A stretch of 64,000 bases of DNA from a virus. This document shows positions 10,013-63,951 of the stretch, in pieces. A program made the translations under genes and the position numbers. The stretch spans positions 64,001-128,000 of IMG/VR virus record IMGVR_UViG_3300033149_003715; one strand, given 5' to 3'. Positions within the stretch are counted from its first letter, which is position 1. The number at the start of each line of letters is the position of its first letter. The notes beneath the pieces were generated by a model. The model was not told where the DNA came from. It did no database searches and saw only the letters and a list, made by a program, of their open reading frames with translations.

Positions 10013-13000
10013 TCATCTAATTTCACAGGCTTTACCAGAACATTCGGATGTAGCATCAAAATTGGTATTATCCTGTTCCTCAATCATTTTGGTATAATCT
10101 ACTGCTATTAATTTTTCTTGAATGTCACAATATAATTTCCAGTTGTGTACATCTTTTAGGCAATATGTTAATTTTTTATAATTACCATCAAAATATTTTT
10201 CGGCAAATTTTTTAGCTTTTTCAATAAATCTCATTTTATTAGAAGCAGTAAGAAGTTGAGCATGTTTAATACCATTACTAAATATACCATTGCTTAATTT
10301 AGTACCAAATTGACTATCTAATAAAGCATCACATGCTGCCCATAAATTATTATCAAAGGCGTGTAATCCTAATTCAATGAGTCCAGAACACCAAATAGCA
10401 GCATCTCCATATTCTCTAATTATTTCTCTTGAATTTAAAACAGAAGTAAATGGTGCTTGTGGAAAATCTTTGTCACAAGTGGTAGAAACAAGTGTTATTC
10501 CCGCAAGACTGTCTTTATGATCATAAATATATTTTGCTACATCATCCCATTCATGGGGTAACACTACAATCGTATTCGACACGTTATGGGTTAACCAGGG
10601 TTTTATACACAACAATGGATTTTTACCATATTCTACCCAATTTTCTTGTGTACTTTGAACAATTTTCAGCATTTCGATAGCTGGTAGTTGATTTTTAGTT
10701 TTTGCACCATCTGGTATTTCTATAGGAAAACGAATAACTTGATCTGTATCTGTTGCCGAATTTAAACTTGGTTCACATGCCTGTGGATTATGTTGTTTGA
10801 AAAACTGAAACGATGTTTCTAAATGATTAGCTTGTACTGTACGCAAAAATCTTTTAGAATGGTGTGGTGATATGCTAGATGAGGTACCCAAAAAACATCC
10901 AGAATTACCATCTGGCTTGATCAACGTTGTGCGAGCAGCAGCCCCAATATTAATTCTCTTGGAAATATCTTCATTTGTATCTCGTATAATATGAGCACCT
11001 TTTTGTTGTATTTGTGGGTTAAGTGTAATTTCAACGTTTTCCATCATACCAGTCATTGATACTCCAATTAAATATTCTTGTTCAATAATTTTTTGAGATA
11101 TTTTACCAAGATATCCAGCATCAGTAAAACCAGCTTGTAGTGTTCCTATAATTGCTGCTGCTTTACAACGATTATAAAAATCTTCTTCATTTCGCAAATT
11201 ACTACAATTAATAGTGCTTAAATTACATACTGCCCAACCGGAATACTGTCTATATCTTGGGTACATGCCTACTTCACCACATGGGTTGATAACCATTTCC
11301 GTTGAATCCGTCCACAAAAACCCTGGATCGCCAAATTCTTTCGTATATTGAATAATTTTTTCAAAATCTTTAAACGTTGTAGAATCTCTTAAAAGAACAA
11401 TTGAATTGTTTGCTCGTGCTCTTTGTGGATTTTCCTTATACCATTGACCAGTCTTACACTTTATCATTTCTTCGTCGTTGTGACTAAATAAACTTAAATA
11501 TGATGAGTTATGTGTAAGCACTCCATCAGCATAAAAACAATGATTTTTTTCTACCTCAAGATCGTATACATCTTTTATGATATTAGTTTCTTCAACTTTT
11601 TGCACTATGGCAGGAATGAAATTATTTATACCTAGTTTTTGTGCTTGTGTGTATGAAATGTAATTTTTATCACCCCAAATTTTACACTTGTCTTTACTTG
11701 TTGTAGCTAATGTGCGAGGAAATACCAATTCATCTTCTATTTTATTCCATTTATAGATAGTATAATACATTGAAGCTCTAACACAATACTTTTTAAGTAA
11801 TTTAGCAACTTTGTCATCAAACACAGGAGAAACTGTTCTAACTGTATATTTGGTAAGTTTATTTTCCTTATTTGGGTATTGTGTACTTAATTTTGTTGGA
11901 ATACCTAAAGATGAATATAAAATTTGAATATCCCGAGCAAAAGAATGATATCTTGTAGATACTAAACATAATTGTTTATGTTGTCTACTTGTTTGATGAT
12001 ATATTTGATCACTTGCATCTAATACTCCAGCCAAAAACATCAATTTAATCTTCGGTTTTGCCTCAAAAATACATTGTGGTACTACAATTGTTTGACTAGG
12101 TTGCTTAAAGTGAGTTAAAAAATATTCAGCGACTTGATATTGTTCATATTCCTGTATATGTTTCTTTGTATATATTGAATCATCAGTTAAAATATATCCA
12201 AATAGCCATAATGTGTCTTTATTGAGTTTTATTTTTGGTAACTTAAATTTTCGACCACGGCATACATCTTTATTTAAAATTAAGGTATGTTGTGGTTGTA
12301 GTTGAGATGTTGGTATCCACTGAATATCTCCATACATATTTTTTGCTACTGCCCACACATGTTCTTGCGTAGAATATAATTCCCCCAAATTAGTAGTAAT
12401 CTTAATAAGCTTCCTTTTTCCGTTGTACCATTTATTTGTTACTTTTCGGTATCCATTATTTGTTTTTACCAAATCCCCGATTTTAACATCTTGAATAAGT
12501 TTATATCCATATTTCGTATAAATTTTAGTATTTTTTGGTAAACATCGTCTTTGTCCACCACTTAACACCATATCTGAAATATAGCATATAATATCGTGAG
12601 CGTCGATTGGTTTTAGTTTTTTTTGGTTATTTGTTATACACCTGTCTAACAAATTTTGAATATTTTCCAAGGCTTTTTTTAATGGTGCTGGTCCGGGGGC
12701 TTTTCCAGTACCAGAACTTAAATACGATCCTTCTGGTCTAATGTGGGAAAAATCAAATTTAACATTACACATATAATAGTCTGGGAATACTGGATCTTCA
12801 AAATATGATGAAAGCAAAACCCCAACAGCATCTGCCCATCCCTCAATAGTATCTGGAATAATATATGTTTTTTCTTTAATTTTAGATTTATCTGCTATAT
12901 CTTGGGGGAGTTTAGCAAATTCTGGTAATTGTTTGATATGATGTTTTTGTATAGAAATACCACAACCAGCACCAACTAACAACATCCACGCAATTTCCTG

Positions 13001-13327
13001 AAAAACTCTTAATCTATCACAGTATGAAGCACTACAATTATAACAACGCATATTTTTCTTGAGCATTGATTGTCCGGCATGTTGTAAACATCTTTGACTA
13101 CCCAATACTCTTTTTTGTTTCATTAAACGATATGCCCATTTAATTTCTGTTTTTAATTTTGGATCTTGTTCAAAAAATGGAGCATATTTTACCAACATCA
13201 TATCAAGTACACGTGCTATTGCTTCCTCCCAAGTTTCACGACGTTTTTTGTCTGGTAACCAACGAGCATATTTAGATACAAAAGTGTATTTTTGCAATTC
13301 CTTTAAGGGTGTAAGAGGTTTGGTCAT
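10013..13327 (-). CDS. nrdJ: adenosylcobalamin-dependent (class II) ribonucleotide reductase, intein-containing
   Basis: SKYARW..RRETW, YNC, GGQRR/S, NPCGE, CNL, IKP.G, C-terminal CSGKACE. Confidence 0.93.
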   Translation of the reverse strand: MTKPLTPLKELQKYTFVSKYARWLPDKKRRETWEEAIARVLDMMLVKYAPFFEQDPKLKTEIKWAYRLMKQKRVLGSQRCLQHAGQSMLKKNMRCYNCSASYCDRLRVFQEIAWMLLVGAGCGISIQKHHIKQLPEFAKLPQDIADKSKIKEKTYIIPDTIEGWADAVGVLLSSYFEDPVFPDYYMCNVKFDFSHIRPEGSYLSSGTGKAPGPAPLKKALENIQNLLDRCITNNQKKLKPIDAHDIICYISDMVLSGGQRRCLPKNTKIYTKYGYKLIQDVKIGDLVKTNNGYRKVTNKWYNGKRKLIKITTNLGELYSTQEHVWAVAKNMYGDIQWIPTSQLQPQHTLILNKDVCRGRKFKLPKIKLNKDTLWLFGYILTDDSIYTKKHIQEYEQYQVAEYFLTHFKQPSQTIVVPQCIFEAKPKIKLMFLAGVLDASDQIYHQTSRQHKQLCLVSTRYHSFARDIQILYSSLGIPTKLSTQYPNKENKLTKYTVRTVSPVFDDKVAKLLKKYCVRASMYYTIYKWNKIEDELVFPRTLATTSKDKCKIWGDKNYISYTQAQKLGINNFIPAIVQKVEETNIIKDVYDLEVEKNHCFYADGVLTHNSSYLSLFSHNDEEMIKCKTGQWYKENPQRARANNSIVLLRDSTTFKDFEKIIQYTKEFGDPGFLWTDSTEMVINPCGEVGMYPRYRQYSGWAVCNLSTINCSNLRNEEDFYNRCKAAAIIGTLQAGFTDAGYLGKISQKIIEQEYLIGVSMTGMMENVEITLNPQIQQKGAHIIRDTNEDISKRINIGAAARTTLIKPDGNSGCFLGTSSSISPHHSKRFLRTVQANHLETSFQFFKQHNPQACEPSLNSATDTDQVIRFPIEIPDGAKTKNQLPAIEMLKIVQSTQENWVEYGKNPLLCIKPWLTHNVSNTIVVLPHEWDDVAKYIYDHKDSLAGITLVSTTCDKDFPQAPFTSVLNSREIIREYGDAAIWCSGLIELGLHAFDNNLWAACDALLDSQFGTKLSNGIFSNGIKHAQLLTASNKMRFIEKAKKFAEKYFDGNYKKLTYCLKDVHNWKLYCDIQEKLIAVDYTKMIEEQDNTNFDATSECSGKACEIR
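11507..12544 (-). mobile_element. intein (346 aa) with degenerate LAGLIDADG endonuclease
   Basis: starts CLPKNT (Cys262), T.EH block B, VYDLEV block F, ends THN followed by Ser; FLAGVLDASD motif. Confidence 0.9.
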
Positions 13328-57303: not shown

Positions 57304-58719
57304 TTACTGTAGACTTCTTTGTCTGATTGTATCGAATTTTTGAGTGACTAATAATCGTCCATTACGATATACCTCCACTAATTTATTTATGTGCTGGGGT
57401 AGATAGTCATAATTTACTGTCTTAAAACATTTTTCGTCGTCCGCATAAATAAGCCTCAATCGTCCCTTTTTTGATTGTTTATTTTTGTCTTTAGGTCGTT
57501 TAGATATATCATGCCATGTATTACATCTTTTTTGTGCTGAACATTTGAAGGCGAAAGCTTGGGTGTCTCTGTTAATTTTTTGTAGTAATCCGCCACCCAT
57601 ACCAAATACTAGGCTTTCTACTGAGAATTTGTTTTCTACAACGATTTTACATATTTCTGTGATAGTATTTACACTCAAACCATCTCCCCATAACACACCT
57701 ACAACTGGATTTATTACAGTATACCCTTTGGAATTAACATGATATCCAAACGTATTTGCCAATTGTTTTAATATCCAGACTATTTGCTTACCTGGATGTT
57801 TGTGTTGTTGTGTTATACTATCTGGTCTAATAACCACTTTAGCTATACCAGATTTGTTTGCTTTTCTGTTAATTATTTGCTGTTTGAATTTGGGTATAAT
57901 GTTTTCCACAAAGTTATAAATATCATACGAATCCGCGACTATACTTAGAATTCCATTCGGGTATTTTTGGAGCAATTCGTTAACTAACGTTACTTCTCCT
58001 TGATGATCGTATGATGTCATTATTGAGTGTTCGGTTGCGGGGACACTAAAACCTAATGTTTTTGGATCAGCTTGGTAATATTCTATACCTTCTAATAGGG
58101 CTGGAACTGTATCGGTTCCTTTGAAATTAATTAAGTGTGCTAATCCACCTAAACTTGCAGATTCATTAGAGCTTACACCACGATAACCAAAATCGTGAAG
58201 CATAAAATCTAAACACTGTGTTTGTTCTGACGATATATTAAGATATTCAGCCAGTGTTCTTTTAGTGTAATAACTAATAGTAGCTACAGTTGATGGATAC
58301 CATACATGTGTTAGCAAAGATTCCACAAAATTAGTTAACCAATAACATTTTGGATCTGTATTTTCCACTGTCATCATTACATTATTAATATCAACTGGCG
58401 TACCTTCTGGCACTGCCTTGATTGATAGTGGTAAATACCCATTGTGCTTTTTAACTATATGCAACCAGCCATCTTCGTTGAATAAATTTTGTCCAAAATG
58501 ATTTTGGATAATTGTTTTGGCCACTGTAATTTTTTCTCGCGTGACTCTCCTTCCTACCATATTTTTAAGTAAAATAGATTGTAAACCAAAAAAAACAGTT
58601 TTTGGATATTTTGCCCATTTTCTACATTCTAAGTAGGAATAAATTGTCCGTGTGTTTTTTGGGTACATTTTGTAATGAGCAAATTTGTAACTATCCGATA
58701 ATAAACAGATATTATCCAT
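57304..58719 (-). CDS. nadV: nicotinamide phosphoribosyltransferase (NAMPT)
   Basis: DSYK..H...YP, FFGLQ, WYP.TVAT, LHDFG.RG, VPATEHS, DSYD, IRPDS, GDG, FGMGGGLLQK.NRDT..FA.K. Confidence 0.93.
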   Translation of the reverse strand: MDNICLLSDSYKFAHYKMYPKNTRTIYSYLECRKWAKYPKTVFFGLQSILLKNMVGRRVTREKITVAKTIIQNHFGQNLFNEDGWLHIVKKHNGYLPLSIKAVPEGTPVDINNVMMTVENTDPKCYWLTNFVESLLTHVWYPSTVATISYYTKRTLAEYLNISSEQTQCLDFMLHDFGYRGVSSNESASLGGLAHLINFKGTDTVPALLEGIEYYQADPKTLGFSVPATEHSIMTSYDHQGEVTLVNELLQKYPNGILSIVADSYDIYNFVENIIPKFKQQIINRKANKSGIAKVVIRPDSITQQHKHPGKQIVWILKQLANTFGYHVNSKGYTVINPVVGVLWGDGLSVNTITEICKIVVENKFSVESLVFGMGGGLLQKINRDTQAFAFKCSAQKRCNTWHDISKRPKDKNKQSKKGRLRLIYADDEKCFKTVNYDYLPQHINKLVEVYRNGRLLVTQKFDTIRQRSLQ

Positions 58720-59667: not shown

Positions 59668-60552
59668 TTACTTCTGTGTAAGTTGTTGTGTTAATTTTTG
59701 GAAATATTTTTTAAATATAATTGCCGTTTGACGATTTATTTCTTTTTCTACAGGCTTAGACCAAGCAATTTCACCTCTTGCTTCTCGTTTAATGTCTTCG
59801 CACATACTGATTAGAATTTCCCTCATATTTTCAATACTTGGCGGCTGCTGGTTTTTTGAATGAATTTTATCTAAAACGTGTTTTAATCTGTTTATTGTGA
59901 CCCATTCTGTTGCTATATCTTGAGCTTGTTTAAGAACTTCTAATTTTTTAGGATCTTTAATTTGCCGTTTCTTTTTTGTTTCTCGGAAGTCGTCATTTTT
60001 ATACTTTGCAATTACTCGTTCATTATTATTTTTCCTTAATTCAATAAGAGGGCGAATAACAATTCCTTCTCGGGTTTGATTGTGGTTACCTGCCCATTCT
60101 GCTACAACAGATGGTTTATCTCGTTCTTCTGTAAGAATATCTAAATCAGTAGAACATTTTATATATGGGACAAATGTAAGCCCACATCTTTTTACTATTT
60201 TTTCGGCTGTAGGAACATCTAACCAGCAATCACCTATTTTTACATCAAAGGCAATAAATTTTAGGTTACTACCATACTTTTTTGATTGACCTTGTACTTT
60301 TCCACCATATCCTTCGCCGTAGATTATAATATCATCTACTTTAGGTAAATTAGCTAAAATTTCTTCTTGGTTGAATAAATTGGTGAAGTTTTCGTGTTTA
60401 ATACAGCCAGAGAAAAATGATAACTGTGGTTGTCTTGTTACTTTATACTTTATATGTGTGCTTGTACCATCCACCTTCTCCAGAGCGTACACTTCCTTAA
60501 ATAGTAAAACTTCTTGAGCTTTATATAAATTATTTATATGTAAGTAACCCAT
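59668..60552 (-). CDS. RNA ligase (Rnl2-type)
   Basis: motif I EKVDGT, GEGYG..VQ, FDV, EGIVIRP, AKYK. Confidence 0.85.
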   Translation of the reverse strand: MGYLHINNLYKAQEVLLFKEVYALEKVDGTSTHIKYKVTRQPQLSFFSGCIKHENFTNLFNQEEILANLPKVDDIIIYGEGYGGKVQGQSKKYGSNLKFIAFDVKIGDCWLDVPTAEKIVKRCGLTFVPYIKCSTDLDILTEERDKPSVVAEWAGNHNQTREGIVIRPLIELRKNNNERVIAKYKNDDFRETKKKRQIKDPKKLEVLKQAQDIATEWVTINRLKHVLDKIHSKNQQPPSIENMREILISMCEDIKREARGEIAWSKPVEKEINRQTAIIFKKYFQKLTQQLTQK

Positions 60553-60728
60553 TACTGTTTCCTCAAAAGACTTTTTGGAAATTTCCAATAATACTCACAT
60601 TTTTTGGTTGATTTGTCATATGGTGGTGCAATAAAATATGATTGGTATTTACTTGGTTTAATTAAATATCGAAGACAACTTTCTTTGTGTGGACAATCTT
60701 TTCCATAACACATGGTAATATCAGGCAT
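60552..60728 (-). CDS. small Cys-rich phage protein (not in ORF track)
   Basis: MPDITMC....CP....C.RY...P...QS.F...P......CEYYW; GGAGG RBS. Confidence 0.65.
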   Translation of the reverse strand: MPDITMCYGKDCPHKESCLRYLIKPSKYQSYFIAPPYDKSTKKCEYYWKFPKSLLRKQ

Positions 60729-62454: not shown

Positions 62455-62964
62455 TCATCCTAAATCGTAAACGGTCCATACGATATTTGTATCACCAAAT
62501 GCGAATTCGATACATTCTTGAATATTTTCCCATTTACCTCCAGCTAAACCGCAACCAAATCTTGGACTATGTAGAGATACTTGATGTTGTATTTTGGTAG
62601 TATTTAAATGTAAACGTAAACGGATTAATCCTTCTTTGATTGCTTCATATCTAATAGGAGGAATTATAATTCTGTTAAATCGAAGTGGTTTGATATTTTT
62701 TTGTCCTATTAAATTGCATACGAATTGCGTTAGTGTTGGTGATTTGTGTACTTGTATAAGTTGTATATCTCCTAGCTTTTGACGATCTATGTTGGCTTGA
62801 TATGTTAATTTAGTTTGTGGCCATTTTTTAGCCAAAGGAATTACAAAACCTGCACCCCATGCTCCAATATCATTACAACAGTGTACAATAATTTGTTGTT
62901 CGTATCCGTTGGGGTAAACACGGATTGGGTTTGTTGCATCACCTTTAACGGTTTGTAGTTTCAT
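62455..62964 (-). CDS. macrodomain (ADP-ribose processing) protein
   Basis: GDAT, IVHCCN..G.WGAGF...LAKKWP, NL.GQ, PRFGCGLAGG.W. Confidence 0.88.
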   Translation of the reverse strand: MKLQTVKGDATNPIRVYPNGYEQQIIVHCCNDIGAWGAGFVIPLAKKWPQTKLTYQANIDRQKLGDIQLIQVHKSPTLTQFVCNLIGQKNIKPLRFNRIIIPPIRYEAIKEGLIRLRLHLNTTKIQHQVSLHSPRFGCGLAGGKWENIQECIEFAFGDTNIVWTVYDLG

Positions 62965-63470: not shown

Positions 63471-63561
63471 TTGGACTACGGGGAATCGAACCCCACGGAG
63501 TTACCATCCGCAATTATTTATACTCCCACAAGTTTATAAGACTTGCTGCGGCTATAGTCCA
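63471..63561 (-). tRNA. atypical tRNA-Ile(UAU)-like RNA lacking a canonical D-arm
   Basis: acceptor TGGACTA/TAGTCCA, anticodon arm CAAGT-CTTATAA-ACTTG, T-arm TGGGG-TTCGATT-CCCCG, long variable arm GGAGT/ACTCC. Confidence 0.7.
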
Positions 63562-63576: not shown

Positions 63577-63951
63577 TTAAGTAATTTCTCGTGTAAGTTT
63601 TACGGCATCTACCTGATATGTACCTTTTGGAGTAGGCATCCTTGTTAGGGGCATTTTTTGCTTTTGGTGTCTTGATGTCCAGAAATCTTCCAAAAATAGA
63701 TTGCAACTACAAACAACAAGTGCTTTGCGTGGGTTTTTAACTTCACACTCGAAAAGACGATATTGTGTAGAAATAATATTTTGACTTTGCTGAAGTAGTT
63801 TAATTTGTTTTATATCATTAAACACGAAAAGTTTTGAGTATTTAAGAACTGGTTTAACCCACTTATTTATTATATATTGTACGCAAAATCTATTCCCAGT
63901 ATTATTAATAGATTTAAGTTGTAAGTCAGTAACTTTATAAAATTTTTTCAT
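63577..63951 (-). CDS. paralog family A protein
   Basis: FYKV, Y.INKW.KP, KLFVF, FECEVKNP, PKGTY.VDAVKL. Confidence 0.75.
   Translation of the reverse strand: MKKFYKVTDLQLKSINNTGNRFCVQYIINKWVKPVLKYSKLFVFNDIKQIKLLQQSQNIISTQYRLFECEVKNPRKALVVCSCNLFLEDFWTSRHQKQKMPLTRMPTPKGTYQVDAVKLTREIT

What the first reader, a model, noticed from the sequence alone, without database searches (positions are those of the whole stretch)
63471..63561. tRNA-Ile(UAU)-like RNA with its D-arm apparently rewired into a pseudoknot
Seen (minus strand): TGGACTA TA GCCGCAG CAAGT CTTATAA ACTTG TG GGAGT ATAAATAATTGCGGATGGTA ACTCC G TGGGG TTCGATT CCCCG TAGTCCA A. The acceptor, anticodon and T arms are canonical, but only 7 nt lie where the D-arm should be. 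Their CCGCAG can pair with TTGCGG in the 20-nt variable-arm loop, and a D-loop-like TGGTA follows immediately. Inference: the D-stem and D-loop/T-loop elbow are rebuilt from the variable arm, a permuted tRNA topology that standard tRNA finders would probably miss. Established: bacteria usually read AUA with lysidine-modified CAU, so a UAU anticodon is rare. This RNA could supply AUA decoding for an AT-rich phage or act as a decoy for anticodon nucleases.
Basis: partly seen in the sequence, partly recalled or inferred. Interest (0 to 1): 0.85.

Follow-up and report, generated by a model that had tools for sequence, protein, structure and literature searches.

The report
Phage isoleucine tRNA with rewired D-arm
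This 91-base phage gene is most likely a working tRNA for the isoleucine codon AUA. Its D-arm is not a hairpin but a helix between the 5' connector and the loop of the variable arm, a non-cloverleaf pseudoknot that standard tRNA finders miss and that I found in no paper.

Summary
Window 63471-63561 (minus strand) lies between two genes of a complete 144-kb, 32% GC phage. It has an acceptor stem, a UAU anticodon arm, a consensus T-loop and A73, but no D hairpin. ARAGORN and Rfam miss it.

I found 12 more distinct sequences with the same layout in viral and metagenome contigs, mostly inside tRNA gene arrays.
- **D-like helix:** in an alignment not fitted to it, connector bases 11-15 pair with variable-loop bases 50-54 in 86% of cells, against 55% when shuffled (0/500). 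All five pairs change on both sides.
- **Variable-arm stem:** it crosses that helix and also covaries, so the fold is a pseudoknot.
- **Closest relative (L142):** 74% identical, and 20 of its 24 differences are paired compensatory changes.

Refinements: the acceptor/T helix is 8/4, not 7/5; the anticodon stem has 6 pairs; G16 pairs with U34, not U49.

AUA makes up 33% of this phage's Ile codons and aligns with Ile/Val columns in homologues. Expression, charging and decoding are untested.

This scan has noted the same rewired family on other DNA, and I checked that partly. I found no published description. The nearest is the 8/4 allo-tRNAs.

The parts
63554..63561 (-). Acceptor stem, 5' strand (RNA positions 1-8). 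The 8th pair is U8.G83.
   Evidence: Pairs 1-7 with 84-90 are 100% paired and all 7 covary. Position 8 pairs with the last T-stem 3' base in 9 of 9 subgroup members, using 5 pair types.
63552..63553 (-). Two-base linker, AG (RNA 9-10).
   Evidence: Read from the sequence.
63547..63551 (-). 5' strand of the D-like helix, CCGCA (RNA 11-15). It abuts the anticodon stem.
   Evidence: Pairs with 50-54. 86% of cells are paired against 55% shuffled, 0/500, and 5 of 5 pairs change on both sides. There are 3 double compensatory changes against L142.
63528..63546 (-). Anticodon arm (RNA 16-34): a 6-bp stem and the loop CUUAUAA. The anticodon UAU is at 63536-63538.
   Evidence: The 5-bp core is 100% paired and 4 of its pairs covary. 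The G16.U34-type pair forms in 7 of 8 sequences.
63522..63526 (-). Variable-arm stem, 5' strand, GGAGU (RNA 36-40).
   Evidence: Pairs with 61-65. 100% of cells are paired and 5 of 5 pairs covary, on an alignment fitted to this stem. The alignment-free permutation test gives 0/20000 with Watson-Crick pairs only.
63513..63521 (-). A-rich linker, AUAAAUAAU (RNA 41-49).
   Evidence: Eight of its nine bases are identical in L142. The region is A-rich in all relatives.
63508..63512 (-). 3' strand of the D-like helix, UGCGG (RNA 50-54), inside the variable-arm loop.
63502..63507 (-). D-loop-like segment AUGGUA carrying the GG dinucleotide (RNA 55-60).
   Evidence: A UGGU motif follows the 3' strand in every relative, but it was part of the search pattern. 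Its role as a partner of the T-loop is inferred.
63497..63501 (-). Variable-arm stem, 3' strand, ACUCC (RNA 61-65).
63480..63494 (-). T-arm (RNA 68-82): a 4-bp stem, GGGG/CCCC, and the loop UUCGAUU.
   Evidence: The loop matches the tRNA consensus.
63471..63479 (-). Acceptor stem, 3' strand (RNA 83-90), and discriminator A (RNA 91). No CCA is encoded.
   Evidence: A follows the acceptor in 13 of 13 family members.

Best explanation
The element is a functional phage tRNA gene, most likely an isoleucine tRNA that reads AUA, with a non-cloverleaf core.

Shown by comparison of sequences:
- an 8-bp acceptor stem stacked on a 4-bp T-stem;
- a 6-bp anticodon stem with a standard 7-nt loop (U33, UAU, A37);
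- a 5-bp 'D-like' helix between connector bases 11-15 and bases 50-54;
- a 5-bp variable-arm stem (36-40 with 61-65) that encloses the second strand and so crosses the D-like helix, making a pseudoknot.

Inferred:
- The connector strand plays the part of the canonical D-stem 3' strand (22-25), because it runs straight into the anticodon stem.
- The relocated strand plus AUGGUA plays the part of the D-stem 5' strand plus D-loop (10-21).
- Its GG docks on the T-loop, so an L-shape is kept.
- Every changed connection joins residues that are neighbours in a normal tRNA core.
- The RNA is cut from a longer transcript, receives CCA from the host, is charged by the host's IleRS, and supplements decoding of AUA.
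For: - Covariation: across 9 distinct sequences aligned without reference to the D-like helix, all five helices give 96.4% paired cells against 60.8% shuffled (0/500). The D-like helix alone gives 86% against 55% (0/500), a covariation score of 0.87 against 0.31, and 14-46% when the partner is slid.
- Alignment-free test: pairing each connector with its own downstream strand against other members' strands gives 0/20000 for the D-like helix and 0/20000 (Watson-Crick only) for the variable stem.
- Closest relative: against L142 (67 of 91 bases identical), 20 of the 24 differences form 10 compensatory pairs, three of them in the D-like helix. L142's neighbouring genes show no protein similarity to this phage, so it is the RNA itself that is conserved.
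- tRNA arrays: relatives lie within 7-35 nt of ordinary tRNA genes in arrays.
- Conserved tRNA features: A73 in 13 of 13; the anticodon and T loops are consensus, though both were part of the search pattern.
- Demand for AUA: 1072 codons, 33% of Ile, 26.9 per 1000. The phage's four ordinary tRNAs read ACA, UUA and AAA, also its commonest codons for those amino acids.
- Meaning of AUA: in the phage's NAMPT gene, AUA codons align with Ile (42%) and Val (23%) in 100 homologues, much as AUU codons do.
- Precedent: a synthetic D-arm-less tRNA is accepted by the E. coli charging enzyme, EF-Tu and ribosome (PMC11551756).
Against: - There is no evidence of transcription, processing, CCA addition or aminoacylation.
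- No strong promoter or terminator is predicted nearby.
- In this phage the gene stands alone between protein genes, not in an array.
- The amino-acid identity is inferred only from the anticodon and A73. The host and its IleRS are unknown, and the E. coli Ile determinants outside the anticodon (recalled from the literature, not tested here) are not visibly kept.
- The family was collected with patterns that fix the UAU loop, a UGGU motif and the T-loop, so conservation of those motifs is partly built in.
- The three-dimensional equivalence to a normal tRNA core is reasoning, not a model.
Confidence: 0.65

Rival explanations
1. A conserved tRNA-like RNA that is not used in translation. It could be a decoy or sponge for host anticodon nucleases or other tRNA-targeting defences, or a substrate that titrates a modification or repair enzyme.
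For: - The fold is unusual, and nothing shows that it is charged.
- The phage carries an RNA ligase gene 3 kb away (window 59668-60588) and two tRNA-Lys(UUU) genes. This is the kind of equipment that phages facing anticodon nucleases carry (my own knowledge of T4 and T5).
- The abundant allo-tRNA(UAU) group was inactive in E. coli translation tests and was proposed to be non-translational (PMC5389517).
Against: - A decoy need not keep A73, a 12-bp acceptor/T helix, and a position inside tRNA arrays with tRNA-like spacing.
- The anticodon matches a codon the phage uses heavily, as do its four ordinary tRNAs.
- No nuclease that targets tRNA-Ile(UAU) is known to me.
Confidence: 0.2
2. An allo-tRNA-like missense tRNA with an 8/4 helix and a long variable arm. 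SerRS or LeuRS would charge it, so it would insert the wrong amino acid at AUA, as a toxin-like or recoding device.
For: It shares the 8/4 acceptor/T split, a 6-bp anticodon stem, a long variable arm and a weak tRNA-Sec model hit with the allo-tRNAs, among which UAU is a predominant anticodon (PMC5389517). A73 is also the Leu discriminator in E. coli (my own knowledge).
Against: - A73 in 13 of 13, whereas most allo-tRNAs have G73 or U73 (PMC5389517).
- There is no long-stem, tetraloop D hairpin.
- The variable-arm loop is tied up in the D-like helix, so the arm cannot point as it does in tRNA-Ser.
- The phage's own AUA codons sit at Ile/Val columns, four of them more than 88% Ile, with no serine signal. 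Misreading would damage its own proteins.
Confidence: 0.07
3. A decaying tRNA pseudogene that lost its D-arm by deletion. The complementarity to the variable loop would then be chance.
For: - In this one sequence the 5-bp match has a 1-5% chance expectation.
- A large phage family of roughly 90-nt tRNA(UAU) genes with a normal D-arm and a long variable arm exists. Ours aligns to it as if 8 D-arm bases were missing.
Against: - Thirteen distinct sequences share the layout, and both long-range helices covary.
- 20 of the 24 differences from L142 are compensatory.
- All helices are intact.
Confidence: 0.03

Closest known systems
(8/4) allo-tRNAs, including allo-tRNA(UAU), of Mukai et al. 2017 (PMC5389517; reviewed in PMC7609411)
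   Same: - A 12-bp acceptor/T helix split 8/4.
- A longer anticodon stem and a long variable arm.
- Found through weak tRNA-Sec model hits.
- UAU is a predominant anticodon.
- Some occur in phages.
   Different: - Allo-tRNAs keep a D hairpin (long stem, tetraloop), and most have G73 or U73 and serine identity.
- Here there is no D hairpin, A73 is invariant, and the variable-arm loop pairs with the 5' connector.
- I could not read their supplementary sequences, so some overlap with their 'irregular' UAU set cannot be excluded.
TilS-independent class I tRNA-Ile(UAU) of bacteria such as Mycoplasma mobile, and ordinary phage tRNA-Ile(UAU) genes
   Same: A UAU anticodon for AUA, A73, and the presumed role of reading AUA without lysidine.
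   Different: Those are ordinary 7/5 cloverleaves of about 76 nt with a D hairpin. The comparison rests on my own knowledge and on earlier notes of this scan. I did not align them here.
Phage tRNA(UAU) genes of about 90 nt with a normal D-arm and a long variable arm whose 7-nt loop reads CAGAUUA
   Same: Phage-borne, with a UAU anticodon loop, A73, often an encoded CCA, and an extra arm between the anticodon and T arms.
   Different: They have a normal D hairpin and a small conserved variable loop, and ARAGORN calls them. Ours has no D hairpin and a 20-nt variable loop that supplies the D-like strand. The GAU motif is not conserved in our subgroup.
Mitochondrial D-arm-less tRNAs (for example mammalian mt tRNA-Ser(AGY)) and the synthetic 'mini HisT' (PMC11551756)
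   Same: No D hairpin between the acceptor and anticodon stems. They show that translation can tolerate this.
   Different: Those simply lack the arm and fold into a Y shape. Here the helix and a GG loop are kept but wired differently, and the setting is a bacteriophage.
Shorter 'rewired' phage tRNAs without the variable stem: Ile(UAU) L030, L095; Ile(GAU) in Kehishuvirus 'tikkala'; Arg(UCU) 'tRNA-OTHER' of Escherichia phage Antha and relatives
   Same: A short connector pairs with a strand downstream of the anticodon arm. A UAAUUGG-type D-loop motif follows. They sit in tRNA arrays and are missed or left unnamed by annotation.
   Different: They are 75-80 nt with a 7/5 helix, U8 and a 3-bp helix, and they have no enclosing variable stem, so there is no pseudoknot. 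Ours belongs to an 8/4 subgroup with a 5-bp helix and a variable stem, and I found no cultured-phage member of it.

Membership tests
Canonical elongator tRNA (Rfam RF00005 cloverleaf) | Acceptor plus T helix of 12 bp, and a T-loop of consensus sequence | tested here: met
   8 + 4 = 12 bp. The loop is UUCGAUU.
Canonical elongator tRNA (Rfam RF00005 cloverleaf) | Anticodon arm with a 7-nt loop, U33 and a purine at 37 | tested here: met
   The loop is CUUAUAA and the stem covaries.
Canonical elongator tRNA (Rfam RF00005 cloverleaf) | D-arm hairpin between positions 9 and 26 | tested here: not met
   Only 7 nt lie between the 8-bp acceptor and the 6-bp anticodon stem, so no hairpin is possible.
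Canonical elongator tRNA (Rfam RF00005 cloverleaf) | Reaches the model's gathering score, or is called by ARAGORN | tested here: not met
   No Rfam hit at gathering scores. ARAGORN at default settings is silent. Only 2 of 11 relatives reach RF00005's cut-off.
Canonical elongator tRNA (Rfam RF00005 cloverleaf) | Is processed, CCA-ended, aminoacylated and used by the ribosome | not testable with these tools
Rewired-D-arm phage tRNAs (informal group; no published definition found) | A short 5' connector pairs with a strand 3' of the anticodon arm, with covariation | tested here: met
Rewired-D-arm phage tRNAs (informal group; no published definition found) | A GG-bearing, D-loop-like segment directly follows the relocated strand | tested here: met
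   AUGGUA is at RNA 55-60. The spacer to UGGU is 0-4 nt in relatives. UGGU was part of the search pattern.
Rewired-D-arm phage tRNAs (informal group; no published definition found) | Lies within a tRNA gene array | tested here: not met
   Here the gene stands alone between protein genes. Fourteen of the 16 relatives share a locus with ordinary tRNA genes.
Allo-tRNA (PMC5389517) | 8/4 or 9/3 acceptor/T split | tested here: met
   Position 8 pairs with the last T-stem 3' base in 9 of 9 subgroup members. In ours it is U.G, which is ambiguous on its own.
Allo-tRNA (PMC5389517) | D hairpin with a long stem and a tetraloop | tested here: not met
   There is no D hairpin.
Allo-tRNA (PMC5389517) | G73 or U73 discriminator (serine identity) | tested here: not met
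   A73 in 13 of 13.
tRNA-Sec (Rfam RF01852) | Gathering score reached, and a UCA anticodon | tested here: not met
   33.3 bits against a cut-off of 47. The anticodon is UAU.
TilS-independent tRNA-Ile(UAU) | UAU anticodon with A73 | tested here: met
TilS-independent tRNA-Ile(UAU) | Charged with isoleucine by IleRS | not testable with these tools
   The only indirect evidence is that AUA codons of the phage align with Ile/Val columns.

The most novel reading that the evidence does not exclude
Bacteriophages, and some bacterial MAG contigs, carry a natural class of working elongator tRNAs that are not cloverleaves. The D-stem is formed between the 5' connector and a strand placed after the anticodon arm. 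In the subgroup represented here that strand is closed off by a variable-arm stem into a pseudoknot on an 8/4 acceptor/T helix, and the RNA is still charged and used on bacterial ribosomes.
Probability: 0.55. Interest if true: 0.9.

Novelty: new variant of a known kind. Interest (0 to 1): 0.8.

Why it matters
[quoted passage not shown] A conserved, covarying, differently wired tRNA core would be a natural counter-example.

If it holds:
- tRNA gene finders and covariance models systematically undercount phage tRNAs. ARAGORN missed all 17 copies examined here.
- RNase P, CCA-adding enzyme, synthetase, EF-Tu and the ribosome would be shown to accept a pseudoknotted core.
- It would give a natural scaffold for orthogonal tRNA design.
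- A core that looks different may also escape host nucleases or modification enzymes that read the D-arm. That would be a new form of phage counter-defence, and it is speculation.

Short-form relatives in cultured E. coli, Salmonella, Vibrio and Bacteroides phages make the question testable at the bench.

Tried and rejected
- The flanking proteins (127 aa and 96 aa) have no relatives in IMG/VR, so synteny could not be used.
- blastn of the element, and of 7.9 kb around it, against 50,697 phage records found nothing useful. L142 and L193 have no cultured-phage match either.
- A first pattern that fixed the acceptor sequence found nothing.
I discarded it.
- The nested-only minimum-energy fold finds the 11-16/49-54 helix but breaks the anticodon arm (z = -2.4). 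It is not informative for a pseudoknot.
- The MAFFT alignment A2 of 13 members was too poor in the variable region to use. I used the covariance-model alignment A4 instead.
- L207 and L172/L223 have the general layout but an ambiguous long-range helix. They were left out of A4 or treated cautiously.
- The GAU-mimic idea noted for the long-armed family is not conserved in this subgroup. GAU is present here and in L193 but absent from L142 and L134.
- No second copy exists in this genome. No Ile(UAU) copy of this subgroup was found in five cultured-phage genomes.
- A pattern for close relatives returned only L142, plus an unrelated odd RNA family.
- The supplementary sequences of PMC5389517 are not held.

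Full report
**What is in the window.** The quoted 91 bases are present on the minus strand at 63471-63561. The window is bases 64001-128000 of a complete virus record of 144,173 bp with direct terminal repeats and 32% GC. The element fills most of a 144-nt gap. The gap runs from the stop codon of a 127-aa gene (63577-63579) to the ATG (63432) of a 96-aa gene with a GGGAG ribosome site, all on the minus strand.

ARAGORN at default settings finds four tRNAs in the genome, Thr-UGU, Leu-UAA and two Lys-UUU, but not this element. Rfam finds nothing here at gathering scores. With relaxed thresholds the only match is tRNA-Sec at 33.3 bits against a cut-off of 47, with the D-arm positions deleted.

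In this one sequence, the 5-bp Watson-Crick match between the connector and the 20-nt loop arises in 1.1% of shuffled loops and 4.9% of shuffled connectors. That is suggestive but not decisive.

**Finding relatives.** The flanking proteins and blastn gave nothing. A pattern for a UAU anticodon loop followed at long distance by a consensus T-loop returned 119 IMG/VR loci. Most hold ARAGORN-callable 'tRNA-Ile(tat)' genes of about 90 nt, 65 distinct sequences in all. These have a normal D-arm and a long variable arm whose 7-nt loop reads CAGAUUA or similar. Against those, our element looks like a copy with 8 D-arm bases missing. That was my first reading.

Earlier notes of this scan described two things on other DNA: that long-armed family, and a 'rewired D-arm' family of phage Ile and Arg tRNAs. 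I took the second as a lead. I searched for a UGGU motif between the anticodon loop and the T-loop in IMG/VR, in metagenome contigs and in one genome per species.

**The same layout recurs.** Twelve further distinct sequences share every element of ours in the same order. They are L142, L193, L134, L214, L188, L185, L168, L123, L155, L183, L218 and L207. The order is:
- acceptor;
- an 8-10-nt connector;
- a UAU anticodon arm;
- a short stem strand;
- an A-rich linker of 7-12 nt;
- a 3-7-nt strand complementary to the connector;
- 0-4 nt and then UGGU;
- the partner of the short stem strand;
- the T-arm.

The connector/downstream pairs differ from sequence to sequence but stay complementary. 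Examples are CCGCA/UGCGG here, UGACA/UGUCA in L142, UACCA/UGGUA in L134, CCAAU/AUUGG in L193 and CUCAA/UUGAG in L214.

**Formal tests.** I aligned nine distinct members with a covariance model built from our sequence alone. That model contains the acceptor, anticodon, variable and T helices but not the long-range helix (alignment A4).
- With the long-range helix written as a pseudoknot, 96.4% of cells pair against 60.8% in shuffles (0/500), and 24 of 27 pairs change on both sides.
- The long-range helix alone gives 86% paired against 54.8 ± 6.2% (0/500). Its covariation score is 0.872 against 0.310 (0/500), and 14-46% of cells pair when the partner is slid by 1-3 columns. All five pairs change on both sides. 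Its unpaired cells come largely from two rows (L134, L155) where an indel misplaces the strand.
- An alignment-free check on 13 members compared each connector with its own downstream window against those of other members. The observed sum was reached by 0 of 20,000 permutations, with or without G-U pairs.
- The same test for the variable stem gave 0/20,000 with Watson-Crick pairs only, and 256/20,000 with G-U pairs allowed.

**The closest relative.** L142 and the identical L200 align to ours without gaps at 67 of 91 bases. Of the 24 differences, 20 form ten compensatory pairs: four in the acceptor, the 8-83 pair, three in the long-range helix (C-G to U-A, C-G to G-C, G-C to A-U), one in the variable stem and one in the T-stem. 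L142's 12.7-kb neighbourhood has no protein similarity to our phage. So it is the RNA that is conserved, not the surrounding genome.

**Refinements to the drawing.**
- In the subgroup that includes ours, position 8 pairs with the last base of the T-stem 3' strand in 9 of 9 members, using five pair types. The first T-stem 5' base pairs with that same base in only 3 of 9. The acceptor/T helix is therefore 8/4. A second subgroup (L155, L183, L218, L207) keeps U8 and 7/5.
- G16 pairs with U34 in 7 of 8 sequences, using four pair types. It pairs with U49 in only 3 of 8. The anticodon stem therefore has 6 pairs and the D-like helix abuts it.
- These features (8/4, a 6-bp anticodon stem and a long extra arm) explain the weak tRNA-Sec hit.

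**How it probably folds (inference).** The connector strand runs directly into the anticodon stem, as the canonical D-stem 3' strand does. The relocated strand is followed by A-UGGU-A, as the canonical 5' strand is followed by A14...G18G19...A21. The three changed connections are acceptor to '22', variable region to '10', and '21' to the T-stem. In a normal tRNA core each of these joins residues that are neighbours. An L-shape with a GG/T-loop elbow is therefore plausible.

**Is it a tRNA gene?**
- ARAGORN misses all 16 relatives checked, but 14 of them share a locus with ordinary tRNA genes. Several lie 7-35 nt from the next tRNA inside arrays of 11-32 genes (L123, L188, L183, L218).
- Rfam's tRNA model reaches its cut-off for only two of eleven relatives, both of the 7/5 subgroup.
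- A73 is invariant.
- In this phage AUA accounts for 1072 of 3287 Ile codons (33%; 26.9 per 1000). The four ordinary phage tRNAs read ACA, UUA and AAA, each the commonest codon for its amino acid.
- In the phage's NAMPT gene, the 15 AUA codons align in 100 homologues with Ile 42%, Val 23% and Leu 8%, and four columns are more than 88% Ile. AUU codons give Ile 36%, Val 32% and Leu 24%. AUA therefore means isoleucine here, and a tRNA inserting serine would harm the phage.

**What is not shown.** Transcription, processing, charging and decoding are untested. No convincing promoter or terminator is predicted nearby. The gene is probably cut from a longer transcript. An RNA ligase gene lies 3 kb away, which keeps the anticodon-nuclease decoy idea alive but does not test it.

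**Comparison with the literature.** Five full-text searches found no description of a tRNA whose D-stem is formed with the variable region.
- The nearest published class is the 8/4 and 9/3 allo-tRNAs, among which UAU is a predominant anticodon (PMC5389517; review PMC7609411). Those keep a long-stem, tetraloop D hairpin, and most have G73 or U73. Ours fails both features. I could not inspect their supplementary sequences.
- PMC11551756 states that all known bacterial tRNAs are cloverleaves. It also shows that a synthetic D-arm-less tRNA works in E. coli translation.

**Wider family.**
- Shorter forms (75-77 nt, 7/5, a 3-bp helix, no variable stem) occur in IMG/VR contigs (L030, L095) and in tRNA arrays of two Planctomycetota MAG contigs (L266, L282).
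- blastn with relatives reached cultured phages. An Arg(UCU) short form was found in 101 records. Those inspected were Escherichia phage Antha, where it is annotated 'tRNA-OTHER' in an array just downstream of NAMPT, Salmonella phage SSBI34 and Listeria phage LPML1.
- An Arg(UCU) long form with a variable stem occurs in 26 Vibrio phages.
- An Ile(GAU) short form lies in an unannotated gap of the tRNA array of crAss-like Kehishuvirus 'tikkala'.
- I found no cultured-phage member of the 8/4 pseudoknotted Ile(UAU) subgroup.

**Verdict.** The most likely function is an AUA-reading isoleucine tRNA; I put this at about 0.65. A non-translational tRNA mimic is the main rival. This scan has noted the rewired layout before on other DNA. 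I confirmed its recurrence on my own data. I also add that this copy belongs to an 8/4 subgroup in which a variable-arm stem makes the fold a true pseudoknot.

Noticed in passing
L002-L120 (IMG/VR), e.g. L007:7918-8012(-), L016:4684-4773(+): A large phage family (65 distinct sequences among 119 loci) of roughly 90-nt tRNA(UAU) genes. They have a normal D-arm and a long variable arm whose 7-nt loop is conserved as CAGAUUA or CAGAUAA, which displays GAU. They usually have A73 and an encoded CCA. ARAGORN calls them tRNA-Ile(tat).
   Followed up: partly
L289:1499-1577 (Escherichia phage Antha PP925826.1), L290:~1501-1579 (Salmonella phage SSBI34), L292:~1196-1275 (Listeria phage LPML1): Cultured phages carry a 79-nt Arg(UCU) tRNA-like gene with no D hairpin. 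Its connector UAUCUCA pairs with a GAG placed after the anticodon arm, and UAAUUGG follows. It is annotated 'tRNA-OTHER' or not annotated at all. blastn hit 101 records, of which 50 are Escherichia and 37 Klebsiella phages.
   Followed up: partly
L291:~1196-1285 (Vibrio phage 184E37.3a MW824372.1) and 25 other Vibrio phage records: An unannotated Arg(UCU) long form with a variable-arm stem lies next to an annotated tRNA-Gly. Its acceptor register is ambiguous, because two alternative 5' strands are possible.
   Followed up: partly
L293:~1196-1275 (Kehishuvirus 'tikkala' OQ198717.1): An unannotated rewired short-form tRNA with anticodon GAU (Ile) fills the gap between the annotated tRNA-Trp and tRNA-Met in a crAss-like phage's tRNA array. 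The array also has an ordinary tRNA-Ile.
   Followed up: partly
L008:5453-5532(-), L123:3251-3330(+): In these Arg(UCU) rewired copies from uncultured phages, the best connector pairing (AAUC/GAUU and UAGC/GCUG) places the GG motif before the downstream strand, not after it. This may be a second kind of rewiring. The pairing register is uncertain.
   Followed up: partly
L127, L140, L141, L144, L146, L147, L153, L014, L145; L299-L303: This is another odd RNA family. An acceptor-like 6-7-bp stem lies directly beside a consensus T-arm, with AAUGGUUAAU-like bases between them. One or two hairpins precede it, one of which has a CUUAUAA loop. It may be a permuted tRNA-like domain. It was not analysed.
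   Followed up: no
L266:619-693(+), L282:7146-7220(-) (Planctomycetota MAG contigs): Short-form rewired Ile(UAU) genes sit inside arrays of 13-14 ordinary tRNA genes on contigs binned as bacterial. These may be prophage or mis-binned phage DNA.
   Followed up: no
window 57304-58719(-), 59668-60588(-), 62455-62964(-): Near the element lie genes for nicotinamide phosphoribosyltransferase, an RNA ligase (PF09414) and a PHROG 'phosphatase'. NAMPT also lies just upstream of the odd tRNA in Escherichia phage Antha and Salmonella phage SSBI34.
   Followed up: partly
window 10013-13327(-): A 1104-aa ribonucleotide reductase ORF matches the RNR profile in two stretches, with an unrelated segment (weak 'helicase' hits at residues 254-340) between them. 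This may be an intein or an inserted domain.
   Followed up: no
L207:2586-2994(+): A phage-contig tmRNA gene (Rfam RF00023, 74 bits) lies in the same tRNA cluster as a rewired Ile(UAU) copy.
   Followed up: no
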